From the sequence record OR769032.1: a stretch of 64,000 nt of DNA; one strand, given 5' to 3'. Position 1 is the stretch's first letter. Each line of letters starts with the position of its first letter. Both the position numbers and the translations under genes were made by a program. The notes beneath the pieces are model-generated. The model was given only the letters and a program-made list of their open reading frames with translations. It was not told where the DNA came from and made no database searches. Of the stretch, positions 38,314-40,915 are shown piece after piece. Origin of the DNA: Escherichia phage JoYop.

Positions 38314-38787
38314 TTATTTGATTTGTTTAGCAGACCAAATGCGGTCTTTAATAATTTTTTGGATGTCTTCAACATACTCAAGAGAGTGAACATGCGGGTT
38401 ATCTTTGAAACTATAAGCACGAGCTAGCTTTTGGCCTTCAGTTTTGATTACTAAAAGCTCTTTAAGGATAGCTTCATATTTGGAAATAATTCCTTTAACA
38501 ATATTTTTCTCTTGTGCGACTTTAGGATCTGCTTTAGGAGCAGGTTTACCTGAAGCTTTTGCAAAAGCAGCTCCAGTAGCAACTAAACTTTTCCAAGCCA
38601 TACTAACTGCATTTCCCGTAAATCCTTCTGCTTTCATATCGCGAGCAAATTGGAATCGCGATTCATCAGAAGCATCTTTATAGGAATATTTACCCGCGGC
38701 AATGGCAGCTTTTGCGACAGCTTGAATTTCGGTGCTAGATGCTTCATTTAACACCGCTTCATTTAAAAATTGAGCATATGATTTCAT
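38314..38787 (-). CDS. additional internal-protein-like gene with CTS
   Basis: 157 aa starting MKSYAQFLNEAVLNEA; Ala/Lys-rich. Confidence 0.5.
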   Translation of the reverse strand: MKSYAQFLNEAVLNEASSTEIQAVAKAAIAAGKYSYKDASDESRFQFARDMKAEGFTGNAVSMAWKSLVATGAAFAKASGKPAPKADPKVAQEKNIVKGIISKYEAILKELLVIKTEGQKLARAYSFKDNPHVHSLEYVEDIQKIIKDRIWSAKQIK

Positions 38788-38838
38788 CTTATTTCCTGTT
38801 TTAATTCGGGGTTTTAATATACTTATTTATACTAAAAA

Positions 38839-38860
38839 GCCCCAACCTTTCGGTTGGGGC
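38839..38860 (-). terminator. intrinsic terminator closing the tRNA/stable RNA transcription unit
   Basis: GCCCCAACC-GAAA-GGTTGGGGC followed by TTTTTAG on minus strand. Confidence 0.6.
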
Positions 38861-38864
38861 TAAG

Positions 38865-39190
38865 CCTTGCGGCAACCTTGTCGGGGTTCCACCTGCTAAG
38901 GCAAGTGTTTGTACGAAACGCCGGGATTCGAACCCGGTTATCAAGCAGTTGACGCTACTCAATATTTTTAAAAGGCCATATCTCGACCATATCCGAACGT
39001 TCCGTCAAAAACGCTACTCGGCTTACGGCAAAGATATTTCCTCGAATCGATAATTCGGTGCGCCGTTTCTGCTGTGATATAAGGGAACATTAACAGATCG
39101 TAAAGATTTGTTAATGCCGGTCCTTAAACAGGGAGCATCAGTCCGACGACTTACCGGTAGCGACCCGGTTTCTTAATATTCTTTTAAAGC
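38865..39190 (-). ncRNA. candidate structured stable RNA(s), tRNA-like (cf. T4 rnaC/rnaD position)
   Basis: 326-bp ORF-free region downstream of tRNA-Arg; contains a tRNA T-arm-like CCGGG-TTCGAAT-CCCGG element and a distant complementary acceptor-like segment about 150 nt apart. Confidence 0.3.
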
Positions 39191-39196
39191 ATCAAT

Positions 39197-39523
39197 TTAT
39201 TCACAGCGTTTACGCCATAAATCAATTGCTTCATAAGCGGATTCAGCATTTCGAATTAGCCGGCATTTATGTAAAGACTTATGATTTTGATATTGTGTAG
39301 ATAATGGAATTGTATCTAAAAGGTCTTTACGATCAAAGTATTCGTAACCATCTAAACCAAATGAACGATTTTTGAGAAATTGCCAATGGCCAAATTCATT
39401 TTCAACATAAACATAATCTGCATGCTGATAAAGCAAATTAATTACGCGTTCAGAAATAACAGTATCATTATGATTAAAATAAAATGTTAAATCATGAACT
39501 ACTAAATAAACATTACCTTTCAT
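39197..39523 (-). CDS. hypothetical protein between tRNA-Arg and the stable-RNA region
   Basis: ATG at 39523 with GAGGAAAAT SD; the longer track ORF overlaps tRNA-Arg. Confidence 0.4.
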   Translation of the reverse strand: MKGNVYLVVHDLTFYFNHNDTVISERVINLLYQHADYVYVENEFGHWQFLKNRSFGLDGYEYFDRKDLLDTIPLSTQYQNHKSLHKCRLIRNAESAYEAIDLWRKRCE

Positions 39524-39541: not shown

Positions 39542-39618
<77 letters not shown>

Positions 39619-39622
39619 TATT

Positions 39623-39697
39623 TGGCGGACATGCATGGATTCGAACCATGGACCAATTGATTAACAGTCAACTGCTCTACCACTGAGCTACACATCC
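39623..39697 (-). tRNA. tRNA-Asn (anticodon GUU)
   Basis: Hand-folded: GGATGTG acceptor, D-arm GCTCAGTGGTAGAGC, anticodon loop CUGUUAA, T-loop TTCGAAT, CCA encoded. Confidence 0.65.
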
Positions 39698-39701
39698 AAA
39701 T

Positions 39702-39788
39702 TGGTGGGGAGTGATGGAGTCGAACCACCCGAGTCGCAATGACAATGGATTTACAGTCCACACCGCTACCTCTACGGGATAACTCCCC
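39702..39788 (-). tRNA. tRNA-Tyr (anticodon GUA), long variable arm
   Basis: 87 nt; anticodon stem-loop GTGGA-CUGUAAA-TCCAT; variable arm resembles bacterial tRNA-Tyr; D-arm fold less clean. Confidence 0.55.
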
Positions 39789-39801
39789 TTAATTCTTAAT
39801 T

Positions 39802-39876
39802 TGGTGGCCCTGGGTGGAATTGAACCACCATCTGGCGATTATGAGTCGCTTGCTTGAACCTTCCAGCTACAGGGCC
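39802..39876 (-). tRNA. tRNA with CAU anticodon (Ile2/lysidine-type or Met)
   Basis: Hand-folded: acceptor GGCCCTG, anticodon loop CUCAUAA; T4 has a CAU tRNA read as Ile. Confidence 0.6.
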
Positions 39877-39877
39877 T

Positions 39878-39953
39878 TGGTGCTGATTGACGGAATCGAA
39901 CCGCCGACCTTCTCATTACAAGTGAGTTGCTCTACCTACTGAGCTAAATCAGC
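39878..39953 (-). tRNA. tRNA-Thr (anticodon UGU)
   Basis: Hand-folded: D-arm GCTCAGTAGGTAGAGC, anticodon loop CUUGUAA. Confidence 0.65.
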
Positions 39954-39958
39954 AAAAC

Positions 39959-40048
39959 TGGCGGAGGCGATAGGATTTGAACCTATGAGTCGCCGGAGCG
40001 ACTGCCGGTTTTCAAGACCGGTGCATTAAACCACTCTGCCACGCCTCC
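39959..40048 (-). tRNA. tRNA-Ser (anticodon UGA), long variable arm
   Basis: 90 nt; anticodon stem-loop CCGGT-CUUGAAA-ACCGG. Confidence 0.65.
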
Positions 40049-40050
40049 AG

Positions 40051-40124
40051 TCTCCATACAAGGATTTGAACCTTGGACCTCCTGATCCCAAATCAGGCGC
40101 TCTACCAAACTGAGCTACACGGAG
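40051..40124 (-). tRNA. tRNA-Pro (anticodon UGG)
   Basis: Hand-folded: anticodon stem-loop CCTGA-UUUGGGA-TCAGG; CCA not encoded. Confidence 0.65.
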
Positions 40125-40134
40125 TAAATTAAAT

Positions 40135-40208
<74 letters not shown>

Positions 40209-40213
40209 AAATT

Positions 40214-40300
40214 TGGTGCGAGAAGTGGGACTCGAACCCACAAGGAAATCATTCCGCAGCATTTTAAGTGCTGTGCCTTTACCAATTTGACCATTCTCGC
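40214..40300 (-). tRNA. tRNA-Leu (anticodon UAA), long variable arm
   Basis: 87 nt; anticodon stem-loop CAGCA-CUUAAAA-TGCTG; T-arm GTGGG-TTCGAGT-CCCAC. Confidence 0.65.
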
Positions 40301-40306
40301 GCTATA

Positions 40307-40915
40307 TTATTTATTACGTGAAAAAGACTGTTCTATCAATTCTGGACACTTTCGTTCTATCCATTTTCTAGCTTTTTGTGGGCTTATACCTATTATTTTA
40401 GCAGCTTTACTAACCCATCCAAATTTAGAATAATCGATTTTAACTAATTCTTCGTAAATTTCATCAGTTAAAATCTTTTCATTAATATTTACCAGTAAAT
40501 GATATAATTTATTATCATTAGCAATTTTAATGAATCTTTTATAGTTTCCGCCTTTACTTAAACCTAATGAAGTAATTGCAGATGATATAGTAGCCGAATT
40601 TAATAGTGCGTTTAAAATTTCTTCATCACTAACATTATAACGCTTTTTATTATTTTTAATATTTTTACCAGCAAAAGTATCAGTTTGCGAATGGCAATTT
40701 GGACATAATAATCTTAAATTTGATTTAAGATGATTTTTGTTATTTCCATCAATATGATCTAATTGCAGAACAATATGCTTATTTTGCCATTTTGAAATTT
40801 TACAAATTGCACACTCATATGGAAAAATATTTTCTTTTATTATTTTGTCTTTCAGCTTTCCTGTACTAAAATTTGGATGTTTTCCTTCAAAAATTTCAGC
40901 TAATTTAGTATCCAT
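40307..40915 (-). CDS. HNH family homing endonuclease, free-standing, abutting the tRNA cluster
   Basis: HNH core CAICK...LQLDHIDGNNKNHLKSNLRLLCPNCHSQTD; C-terminal helix-turn-helix-like region; track start TTG, ATG at 40915. Confidence 0.65.
   Translation of the reverse strand: MDTKLAEIFEGKHPNFSTGKLKDKIIKENIFPYECAICKISKWQNKHIVLQLDHIDGNNKNHLKSNLRLLCPNCHSQTDTFAGKNIKNNKKRYNVSDEEILNALLNSATISSAITSLGLSKGGNYKRFIKIANDNKLYHLLVNINEKILTDEIYEELVKIDYSKFGWVSKAAKIIGISPQKARKWIERKCPELIEQSFSRNK

What the first reader, a model, noticed from the sequence alone, without database searches (positions are those of the whole stretch)
38861..39196. ORF-free structured RNA region downstream of tRNA-Arg with tRNA-like elements
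About 330 bp between a terminator and the nearest ORF contains no minus-strand reading frame of size. It does contain a perfect tRNA T-arm (CCGGG-TTCGAAT-CCCGG on the RNA) with an acceptor-like segment whose complement lies about 150 nt away, plus several other hairpins. This matches the position where T4 encodes small stable RNAs of unknown function, and could be a tRNA-like ncRNA or a disrupted tRNA.
Basis: partly seen in the sequence, partly recalled or inferred. Interest (0 to 1): 0.35.

Follow-up and report, generated by a model that had tools for sequence, protein, structure and literature searches.

The report
T4 small stable RNAs rnaD/rnaC
The ORF-free stretch holds this T4-like phage's copies of two small stable RNAs known since the 1970s (species 2/rnaD and species 1/rnaC); rnaC is a tRNA look-alike, and the function of both is still unknown.

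Summary
Window 39176..39057 (minus strand) is the orthologue of T4 rnaD (species 2 RNA). Window 39050..38912 is the orthologue of T4 rnaC (species 1 RNA), identical at 136 of 139 positions. A conserved trailer and an intrinsic terminator (38861..38838) follow. Both genes are annotated in T4, RB68 and Kha5h. Rfam has no family for them.

Comparing 23 distinct rnaC sequences from about ten genera of T4-like phages gives a four-arm, tRNA-like fold supported by covariation. It has a 7-position acceptor stem formed by the 5' and 3' ends, a canonical T arm, a long irregular arm and a 10-bp arm. In most other genera rnaC sits in a tRNA-sized slot between tRNA-Trp and tRNA-Gly. The real partner is the rnaC 5' end, about 129 nt away.

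One point I could not find in the literature available here. The apical loops of the two non-tRNA arms (UUGACG and CGUCAA) are perfectly complementary in all 23 aligned sequences. They change together once (UUGGCG/CGCCAA), which suggests a kissing-loop contact.

Function remains unknown. My best guess is a tRNA mimic matured by tRNA-processing enzymes. Novelty: already known.

The parts
39057..39176 (-). rnaD orthologue (T4 species 2 RNA, about 120 nt). It has a 5' hairpin P1 (39169..39153, loop GUCGCUA). A closing stem P2 pairs 39150..39144 with 39065..39058. A conserved internal-loop/P3 region follows, then a variable central hairpin (about 39131..39077).
   Evidence: It aligns to T4 rnaD with 100 identical columns of 121, and the segment is annotated rnaD in RB68 and T4. 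Fold z = -2.8. P1 and P2 are invariant in 11 distinct sequences. One P3 pair changes U-A to A-U in Dhakavirus. The central hairpin exists in three sequence versions that do not align with one another, and each folds as a hairpin.
39051..39056 (-). 6-nt spacer (GAAUUA) between rnaD and rnaC; the 5' leader of rnaC.
   Evidence: Alignment to T4, where the annotated rnaD and rnaC are separated by AAAUUA.
38912..39050 (-). rnaC orthologue (T4 species 1 RNA, 139 nt), a four-arm tRNA-like RNA.
   Evidence: It is identical to T4 rnaC at 136 of 139 positions and is annotated rnaC in T4, RB68 and Kha5h. All three differences from T4 are neutral for the structure: one lies in a bulge and two turn U-A into U-G. 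In the structure model, 89.5% of cells are paired against 36-46% in slid controls, and 27 of 53 pairs change on both sides. De novo RNAalifold recovers the same fold.
39043..39049 (-). rnaC acceptor stem, 5' strand (RNA positions 2-8, CGAUUCG). It pairs with 38920..38914 and includes two invariant U-U mismatches.
   Evidence: Pair 4:135 is A-U in 8 sequences and G-C in 15. The other four standard pairs are invariant.
38973..39042 (-). rnaC long irregular arm (positions 9-78). Its apical 5-bp stem closes the 6-nt loop UUGACG at 39008..39003.
   Evidence: All 5 apical-stem pairs covary. The arm exists in two very different sequence types (T4 type and EnC15/PEi20 type) that keep the same architecture, and the loop is invariant apart from the paired change in the Klebsiella-phage group.
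38939..38964 (-). rnaC second arm (positions 87-112): a 10-bp stem with the 6-nt loop CGUCAA at 38954..38949.
   Evidence: 8 of 10 stem pairs change on both sides. The loop is perfectly complementary to the UUGACG loop in all 23 aligned sequences, and the two loops change together to UUGGCG/CGCCAA in L054, L059, L143 and L154.
38921..38937 (-). rnaC T arm: 5-bp stem CCGGG/CCCGG with the canonical T loop UUCGAAU.
   Evidence: Read directly from the sequence. The third stem pair is G-C, U-A or A-U in different phages.
38914..38920 (-). rnaC acceptor stem, 3' strand (positions 131-137, CGUUUCG). It is followed by U138 A139 and the genomic CAA.
   Evidence: The Klebsiella-phage group encodes ...CCGUCCAA here, that is U followed by CCA.
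38862..38911 (-). 3' trailer of the operon with small hairpins (CACUUGC-CUUA-GCAGGUG and GCC-GCAA-GGC).
   Evidence: It is conserved in Tequatrovirus and also in Dhakavirus, where it follows rnaD directly because rnaC is absent. From memory, an RNase III processing site 3' of species 1 was reported for T4. I did not test this.
38832..38861 (-). Intrinsic terminator that ends the tRNA/stable-RNA transcription unit.
   Evidence: 10-bp stem with 7 G-C pairs, GAAA loop and UUUUU tail. Kha5h annotates a terminator at the matching place.

Best explanation
The region carries the orthologues of bacteriophage T4 rnaD (species 2 RNA) and rnaC (species 1 RNA).

Shown here:
- The window comes from a Tequatrovirus. 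The two genes lie on the same strand as the nine-tRNA array, after tRNA-Arg and a small ORF, and before a trailer and an intrinsic terminator.
- rnaC folds as a four-arm tRNA mimic. Its 5' and 3' ends form a 7-position acceptor stem with two conserved U-U mismatches. That stem abuts a canonical 5-bp T arm with the loop UUCGAAU.
- The D and anticodon arms are replaced by a roughly 70-nt irregular hairpin and a 10-bp hairpin.
- In most other genera rnaC occupies a tRNA-sized slot between tRNA-Trp and tRNA-Gly.
- rnaD is a separate module: a 5' hairpin, a closing stem formed with the 3' end, and a replaceable central hairpin.

Inferred:
- Both RNAs are cut out of the tRNA operon transcript by host tRNA-processing enzymes. 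I expect RNase P at the rnaC 5' end, because an acceptor plus T-arm stack of 12 positions is the RNase P recognition unit. I expect endonuclease and exonuclease trimming at the other ends.
- The tRNA-like module makes rnaC stable and recognisable to tRNA-binding proteins.
- The two non-tRNA loops of rnaC (UUGACG and CGUCAA) probably pair with each other, either as a 6-bp kissing contact within one molecule or between two molecules.

The biological role is unknown. My guess, at about 25-30%, is a tRNA mimic that binds or titrates a tRNA-binding host or phage factor, for example a tRNA-directed defence nuclease. I give lower odds to a base-pairing regulator that uses the conserved loops.
For: Identity:
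- The region is found in about 800 T4-like phage records.
- rnaC/rnaD features are annotated at the aligned positions in T4, RB68 and Kha5h.
- rnaC is identical to T4 rnaC at 136 of 139 positions, and rnaD matches in 100 of 121 aligned columns.

Structure:
- Fold z-scores are -3.8 for rnaC, -2.8 for rnaD and -5.1 for the whole region.
- In 23 distinct rnaC sequences, 89.5% of cells are paired against 36-46% in slid controls. 27 pairs change on both sides, and 0 of 500 shuffles reach the observed score.
- RNAalifold finds the same fold de novo, with compensatory changes in 20 of 36 predicted pairs.

tRNA-slot context:
- rnaC lies between tRNA-Trp and tRNA-Gly in Melville and the Proteus phage (Gelderlandvirus), in Karamvirus, in KM16 (Moonvirus) and in Erwinia COW86c. 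In EcS1 it lies between tRNA-Phe and tRNA-Trp.

Kissing loops:
- All 6 positions are complementary in all 23 aligned sequences, with one A-U to G-C double change.
- The matched loop pairs are predicted at -5.5 and -7.6 kcal/mol. One mismatched combination gives -0.4 and the other -4.9.
- CIP9-type sequences keep both loops although their T loop has diverged.

Expression in T4:
- A northern blot detects RNAC, and RNA-seq classes RNAC and RNAD as late RNAs of unknown function (PMC9697503).
- A review states that their roles are unknown (PMC3014915).

Genetic hint:
- A single SNP in rnaD became fixed in three independent lines of a T4-like phage evolved on host ECOR34 (PMC12685909).
Against: - No expression or RNA-end data exist for this particular phage.
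- The processing enzymes are inferred from structure and from my memory of the 1970s-80s T4 literature, which the paper library does not hold.
- The kissing-loop covariation is one evolutionary event in one clade. The two arms differ greatly in length (about 25 bp against 10 bp), so a contact within one molecule would need sharp bends.
- The annotated T4 ends (U1 and A139) do not match a textbook RNase P product or a CCA end.
- From memory, T4 mutants deleted for the tRNA region are viable on laboratory hosts, so any function is conditional.
- Nothing here identifies a binding partner.
Confidence: 0.9

Rival explanations
1. It is a decayed or disrupted tRNA gene: a pseudogene left after an insertion into a tRNA, with no function of its own.
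For: It has a perfect T arm and an acceptor-like stem. The tRNA-Sec model gives a weak hit of 16.4 bits, E = 1.9. ARAGORN calls a 96-nt 'tRNA-Phe' over the Entb_43 homologue. Some GenBank records label the locus tRNA-Phe or tRNA-Met.
Against: The non-tRNA arms are conserved in architecture, with many compensatory changes, across about ten genera. Loop sequences and the 5' segment UCGRUUCGAGGA are nearly invariant. No D arm or 7-nt anticodon loop is present in any homologue. Neither ARAGORN nor the Rfam tRNA model calls it in the window. In T4 the RNA accumulates as a discrete stable species (PMC9697503).
Confidence: 0.03
2. The stretch encodes one or more small proteins. The 40-aa and 53-aa minus-strand ORFs are candidates, and many GenBank records annotate 'hypothetical protein' here.
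For: ORFs 38968..39090 (40 aa, ATG) and 38801..38962 (53 aa, TTG) exist. Many phage records annotate hypothetical proteins over the match.
Against: The 40-aa frame is truncated in T4, has no start codon in T2, and is gone in Dhakavirus. Substitutions follow base-pairing rather than codon positions. In other genera the segment is flanked directly by tRNAs, with no room for translation signals.
Confidence: 0.02
3. rnaC and/or rnaD act as trans-acting base-pairing regulators, in the manner of the RNase P-processed C4 antisense RNA of phages P1 and P7. They would use their invariant loops (CGUCAA, UUGACG, GUCGCUA) to pair with phage or host mRNAs.
For: The loop sequences stay invariant while the neighbouring stems vary freely. 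The rnaC loops are predicted to be unpaired in the ensemble. An adaptive SNP in rnaD has been reported (PMC12685909).
Against: The two rnaC loops are complementary to each other and covary, which points to self-pairing rather than two independent targets. Six-nucleotide seeds are too short to predict targets, and none was sought. [quoted passage not shown]
Confidence: 0.12
4. One reading: the acceptor 3' strand of rnaC pairs with GAAACG about 150 nt upstream in the 3' part of rnaD, making one large tRNA-like RNA of about 260 nt.
For: CGUUUC (38920..38915) and GAAACG (39068..39063) are perfect complements. The minimum-free-energy fold of the whole 371-nt region uses this pairing. Phages that have both genes carry the U135 variant that fits it.
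Against: rnaC occurs without rnaD in most genera, and rnaD occurs without rnaC in Dhakavirus. The A4-U135 to G4-C135 covariation supports pairing with the rnaC 5' end. GAAACG is invariant and partly used in rnaD stem P2. T4 annotates two separate mature RNAs. At most it could be a transient structure of the precursor.
Confidence: 0.05

Closest known systems
Bacteriophage T4 rnaC (species 1 RNA; misc_RNA T4s001, NC_000866 70908-71046)
   Same: The sequence is identical at 136 of 139 positions. The strand is the same, the position at the end of the tRNA operon before the same trailer and terminator is the same, and the predicted fold is the same.
   Different: Three substitutions, all neutral for the structure.
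Bacteriophage T4 rnaD (species 2 RNA; T4s002, NC_000866 71053-71171)
   Same: The 5' 45 nt and the 3' 20 nt are invariant, the architecture is the same, and it sits directly upstream of rnaC.
   Different: The central hairpin differs at many positions and by small indels. In T4, rnaD starts 1 nt after tRNA-Arg, whereas here a 108-aa ORF (phrog_3355) lies between them. T4 encodes ...CACCA at the 3' end, and the window encodes ...CACCG.
Canonical tRNA (Rfam RF00005)
   Same: It has an acceptor stem made by the two ends, directly adjacent to a 5-bp T stem with the loop UUCGAAU. It is placed inside tRNA arrays with tRNA-like spacers.
   Different: There is no D arm and no 7-nt anticodon loop. It is 139 nt long, the acceptor has two U-U mismatches, and the 3' end is ...UACAA rather than NCCA in most members. 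ARAGORN and RF00005 do not detect it.
tRNA-like domain of tmRNA
   Same: Both are tRNA mimics in which the 5' and 3' ends form the acceptor next to a T arm, while the rest of the molecule is non-tRNA. From general knowledge, both are matured by RNase P.
   Different: There is no tag reading frame and no pseudoknot ring, it is less than half the size, and there is no G-U third pair. ARAGORN and Rfam find no tmRNA.
C4 antisense RNA of phages P1/P7 (recalled from memory; cited among RNase P substrates in PMC11143913)
   Same: It is a small phage RNA released from a longer transcript by host RNase P, with functional hairpin loops.
   Different: No sequence or Rfam similarity. The C4 loops pair with an mRNA, whereas the rnaC loops are complementary to each other.

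Membership tests
T4 rnaC (species 1 RNA) | Full-length sequence homology to the T4 gene | tested here: met
   139 of 139 positions aligned and 136 identical. rnaC features lie under the BLAST match in Kha5h, RB68 and T4.
T4 rnaC (species 1 RNA) | Location in the tRNA operon, on the same strand as the tRNAs, before the operon terminator | tested here: met
   The tRNA array is at 40300..39542 on the minus strand, rnaC is at 39050..38912, and the terminator is at 38861..38838.
T4 rnaC (species 1 RNA) | Conserved four-arm tRNA-like secondary structure | tested here: met
   The window sequence forms every helix of the model. The model is supported by covariation in 23 sequences.
T4 rnaC (species 1 RNA) | Accumulates as a stable RNA of about 140 nt in infected cells | not testable with these tools
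   Shown for T4 by northern blot (PMC9697503). There are no RNA data for this phage.
T4 rnaD (species 2 RNA) | Sequence homology, including the invariant 5' and 3' blocks | tested here: met
   100 identical columns of 121 against T4. The blocks AAGAAACCGGGTCGCTACCGGTAAGTCGTCGGACTGA and TCACAGCAGAAACGGCGCACC are present.
T4 rnaD (species 2 RNA) | Position directly upstream of rnaC (or of the trailer) in the tRNA operon | tested here: met
   A 6-nt spacer separates it from rnaC, as in T4.
Canonical tRNA | Cloverleaf with a D arm and a 7-nt anticodon loop, detectable by tRNA models | tested here: not met
   ARAGORN finds nothing at 38861-39196. RF00005 does not hit, and tRNA-Sec scores 16.4 bits against a gathering score of 47.
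Canonical tRNA | Acceptor stem stacked on a T arm with a UUCRANY T loop | tested here: met
tmRNA | tRNA-like domain plus a tag-peptide reading frame and pseudoknots | tested here: not met
   ARAGORN reports no tmRNA in the window. No tmRNA family appears in Rfam even at E up to 10.
Any other Rfam 15 family (Y RNA-like YrlA, 6S RNA, C4 antisense RNA, hammerhead and others) | Covariance-model score at or near the gathering threshold | tested here: not met
   The best hits are 12-18 bits against thresholds of 42-88, and all are partial or low-complexity.

The most novel reading that the evidence does not exclude
rnaC is a portable cassette that fits a tRNA slot. Its tRNA-like half recruits host tRNA-processing and tRNA-binding proteins. 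Its two other arms are locked together, or join two molecules, through a conserved 6-bp kissing-loop contact. The RNA acts as a decoy or inhibitor of a tRNA-directed host function such as an anticodon-nuclease defence. This would explain why it is kept in about ten genera of T4-like phages yet is dispensable on laboratory strains. The convergent rnaD SNP selected on host ECOR34 (PMC12685909) would then be a first sign that these RNAs set host range.
Probability: 0.15. Interest if true: 0.7.

Novelty: already known. Interest (0 to 1): 0.28.

Why it matters
Species 1 and species 2 RNAs are among the oldest phage RNAs still lacking a function. They have been sequenced since the 1970s, and reviews still list them as 'function unknown'.

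The finding itself only re-identifies them in another Tequatrovirus. The comparison made here does sharpen the problem in several ways:
- It gives a fold for rnaC that is backed by covariation.
- It shows that rnaC and rnaD are independent modules with different phylogenetic ranges.
- It shows that rnaC is treated by genomes like a tRNA gene.
- It points to a specific tertiary contact, the UUGACG-CGUCAA loop pairing, that can be tested by mutation.

It also shows that many GenBank records mis-annotate the locus as hypothetical proteins or as tRNA-Phe/tRNA-Met, and that Rfam lacks both families.

Tried and rejected
- Rfam. Neither the gathering threshold on the whole window nor E up to 10 on 38750-39300 gave a family beyond the nine tRNAs.
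- Old primary literature. I tried the Miller 2003 genome review, Mazzara 1981 and McClain 1972 by id. The library holds none of them. A full-text search for 'p2Sp1' returned only unrelated papers. Statements about RNase P, RNase III and deletion viability therefore rest on memory.
- Pattern scans.
  - TTCGAGGA...GGTTCGANTCC was too loose.
  - The genome-contig scan gave 120 random hits, mostly in high-GC genomes.
  - The metagenome scan gave a single locus of the Klebsiella-phage type.
- Internal acceptor partner ACGGAACG (RNA positions 46-53, the tRNA-Sec-like 8+5 fold that Rfam and ARAGORN pick up). I rejected it because G49-U135 becomes an A-C mismatch in non-Tequatrovirus sequences.
- Hammerhead or k-turn reading of the CUGAUG...GAAAC motif in rnaD. 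I rejected it by inspection: A9 of the hammerhead core is not conserved, there is no stem I, the spacing does not fit a k-turn, and there is no Rfam hit.
- A sigma-70 promoter reading of TTGACG inside rnaC. There is no suitably spaced -10 element, and the scan reports nothing there.
- Mapping the BW1 adaptive SNP onto the rnaD structure. This was not possible because the paper gives no accession or sequence context, and its position statements are ambiguous.
- More distant T4-like phages (Aeromonas, Vibrio, Acinetobacter, Slopekvirus, Jiaodavirus) were not searched with a covariance model.

Full report
**What is in the sequence**

On the minus strand the window carries nine tRNA genes (40300..39542), ending with tRNA-Arg (confirmed by Rfam). 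The following elements come next, in order:
- a 108-aa ORF at 39523..39197;
- an intrinsic terminator with its stem at 38861..38838, followed by UUUUU;
- a TATAAATA motif at 38831..38824;
- the next ORF.

The T-arm 11-mer, allowing one mismatch, occurs eight times in the window. Seven are in tRNAs and one is here, against 0.6 expected from shuffles. Each RNA and the whole region fold better than shuffled sequence, with z = -3.8, -2.8 and -5.1.

**Identity**

A blastn search of 50,697 phage records finds the stretch in about 800 records, nearly all T4-like phages of Escherichia, Shigella, Yersinia and Salmonella. The best match is Shigella phage SH7 at 97-98.6%.

Careful annotators mark the matching segments as rnaD and rnaC. 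RB68 calls them 'species II RNA' and rnaC. Kha5h calls the second one 'small stable RNA; species 1 RNA'. T4 itself lists misc_RNA rnaC at 70908-71046 and rnaD at 71053-71171, directly after tRNA-Arg.

Mapping the T4 features onto the window gives the following:
- rnaD at 39176..39057, with 100 identical columns of 121;
- a 6-nt spacer;
- rnaC at 39050..38912, identical at 136 of 139 positions.

The three rnaC differences are one base in a bulge and two U-A to U-G changes in a stem. The window is therefore a Tequatrovirus, and the finding is its rnaD-rnaC pair. Rfam 15 has no family for either RNA: nothing exceeds 18 bits even at E up to 10.

**Structure of rnaC**

Homologues too divergent to be trivial were collected from GenBank phages and from IMG/VR. 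They come from Tequatrovirus, Gaprivervirus, Mosigvirus, Kagamiyamavirus, Moonvirus, Karamvirus, Kanagawavirus, Gelderlandvirus, a Klebsiella-phage group that includes phage Marfa, and Erwinia phage COW86c.

An alignment of 23 distinct sequences (A4) was scored against a model derived from the T4 fold:
- 89.5% of cells form standard pairs, against 36-46% when the 3' partners are slid by 1-3 columns.
- 27 of 53 pairs show changes on both sides.
- 0 of 500 shuffles reach the observed covariation score.

RNAalifold predicts the same cloverleaf-like fold de novo on that alignment, with compensatory changes in 20 of 36 pairs.

The fold has four arms (RNA positions, with window coordinates in brackets):
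- **Acceptor stem.** Positions 2-8 pair with 131-137 (39049..39043 with 38920..38914). It contains two invariant U-U mismatches. Its third pair switches between A-U and G-C.
- **Long irregular arm.** Positions 9-78. It exists in two very different sequence versions that keep the same architecture. All five pairs of its apical stem covary.
- **Second arm.** Positions 87-112, with a 10-bp stem in which 8 of 10 pairs covary.
- **T arm.** Positions 114-130, canonical. Its third pair is G-C, U-A or A-U.

The acceptor covariation settles the question of the pairing partner. It is the 5' end of rnaC, about 129 nt away. Two other candidates fail:
- The internal ACGGAACG segment, which the tRNA-Sec model and ARAGORN pick up, becomes an A-C mismatch in other genera.

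**Genomic behaviour**

In Karamvirus, Gelderlandvirus, Moonvirus (KM16) and Erwinia COW86c, rnaC lies between tRNA-Trp and tRNA-Gly with tRNA-like spacers of 5-8 nt. In EcS1 it lies between tRNA-Phe and tRNA-Trp. Genomes therefore treat it like one more tRNA gene.

Dhakaviruses (JS10, AnYang, MX01) have rnaD followed directly by the conserved trailer and terminator. rnaC is cleanly absent there.

rnaD was found only in Tequatrovirus, Dhakavirus, Gaprivervirus and Mosigvirus. The two RNAs are thus independent modules.

**Structure of rnaD**

Eleven distinct sequences share these features:
- an invariant 5' hairpin (ACCGG-GUCGCUA-CCGGU);
- an invariant closing stem between GUCGUCG and the 3' end CGGCG(C)AC;
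- a short helix with one U-A to A-U double change in Dhakavirus;
- a central hairpin that occurs in three sequence versions (T4, T2 and JS10 types) that do not align with one another, each folding as a hairpin.

T4 encodes ...CACCA at the 3' end, and the window encodes ...CACCG.

**A candidate tertiary contact**

The apical loop of the long rnaC arm is UUGACG (39008..39003). The loop of the second arm is CGUCAA (38954..38949). The evidence that they pair is as follows:
- They are perfect complements in all 23 aligned sequences, although the stems that close them vary freely.
- In the Klebsiella-phage group (L054, L059, L143 and Marfa L154) both loops change together, to UUGGCG and CGCCAA.
- Predicted duplex energies are -5.5 and -7.6 kcal/mol for the matched pairs. 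The mismatched combinations give -0.4 and -4.9.
- CIP9-type sequences have lost the canonical T loop (UGCAUGC instead) but keep both loops.

I read this as a 6-bp kissing-loop contact, either within one molecule or between two. The support is one compensatory event plus a complementarity whose chance is roughly 1 in 4096 for one pair of loops. It is therefore suggestive, not proven. The unequal arm lengths make a contact within one molecule geometrically demanding.

**How it most likely works**

Shown: the genes are co-oriented with the tRNA operon and end at its terminator, and rnaC has the acceptor plus T-arm stack of 12 positions.

Inferred from established knowledge of RNase P substrate recognition, and from my memory of the T4 literature on the dimeric species 2 + species 1 precursor: RNase P makes the rnaC 5' end, and other host RNases trim the remaining ends. 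I recall reports that RNase III cuts the trailer. I could not check any of this here, because the old papers are not held.

Published evidence I could read shows the following:
- RNAC and RNAD accumulate late in T4 infection, with a northern blot for RNAC (PMC9697503).
- Their roles are unknown (PMC3014915).
- A single SNP in rnaD was fixed in three independent lines of a T4-like phage that gained virulence on host ECOR34 (PMC12685909).

My best guess for function, at about 25-30%, is a tRNA mimic that engages a tRNA-binding factor. A loop-mediated base-pairing regulator is less likely, at about 12%.

**Rivals**

A decayed tRNA is contradicted by purifying selection and covariation in the non-tRNA arms. 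Small-protein coding is contradicted by non-conserved frames and by substitutions that follow pairing.

**Verdict**

The element is already known as T4 species 1 and species 2 RNAs. The added value is a comparative structure model, the modular distribution of the two genes, and a testable kissing-loop hypothesis.

Noticed in passing
window 39197-39523 (-): A 108-aa ORF (phrog_3355, unknown function, no Pfam hit) sits between tRNA-Arg and rnaD. T4 has no such gene, and rnaD starts 1 nt after tRNA-Arg there. RB68 and T2 do have it.
   Followed up: partly
window 38824-38831 (-) and ORF 38314-38787 (-): A T4 late-promoter-like TATAAATA lies immediately after the operon terminator and before a 157-aa ORF of unknown function (phrog_2280).
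   Followed up: partly
L024, L025, L026 (Dhakavirus JS10, AnYang, MX01), about 700-900: These phages have rnaD followed directly by the ACACUUGCC...GGUGGAACCCCGACAAGG trailer and terminator. rnaC is precisely absent, as if it were a cassette inserted or deleted between GAA and ACACUU.
   Followed up: partly
L150, L156, L162, L164 (Enterobacter phage CIP9 type): These rnaC homologues have the T loop replaced by UGCAUGC (stem CCGGG/CCCGG kept), while the two complementary loops UUGACG/CGUCAA are unchanged.
   Followed up: partly
L054, L059, L143, L154 (Klebsiella phages of the Marfa/F48 type): The rnaC 3' end reads ...CCGUCCAAUC, an encoded U followed by CCA. Most other members, including the window, read ...CGUACAA. 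This raises the question of whether rnaC ever carries a CCA end.
   Followed up: no
GenBank records under the BLAST hits: Many records annotate 'hypothetical protein' CDSs over rnaC/rnaD, or call rnaC a tRNA. Examples are tRNA-Phe in KKP_3262 and tRNA-Met in PG7 and SonariX. ARAGORN calls a 96-nt tRNA-Phe in Entb_43. These look like mis-annotations of the tRNA-like RNA.
   Followed up: partly
window 39135 (-), rnaD alignment column 43: The window is the only one of 11 rnaD sequences with C instead of U in GAUG(C/U)UCCC, which turns a U-G pair of helix P3 into C-G. A T-to-C SNP in rnaD was reported as adaptive in phage BW1 (PMC12685909), but I could not establish whether it is the same position.
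   Followed up: partly
window 39063-39068 and 38915-38920 (-): GAAACG in the 3' part of rnaD is a perfect complement of the rnaC 3' acceptor strand CGUUUC, but only in phages that have both genes. rnaC in phages without rnaD has CGUUCC. This could be a transient pairing in the precursor, or simply shared ancestry.
   Followed up: no
window 40301-40420 (-): T4 and Kha5h have tRNA-Gln directly upstream of tRNA-Leu. The window has no tRNA-Gln there, and the sequence upstream of tRNA-Leu looks protein-coding.
   Followed up: no
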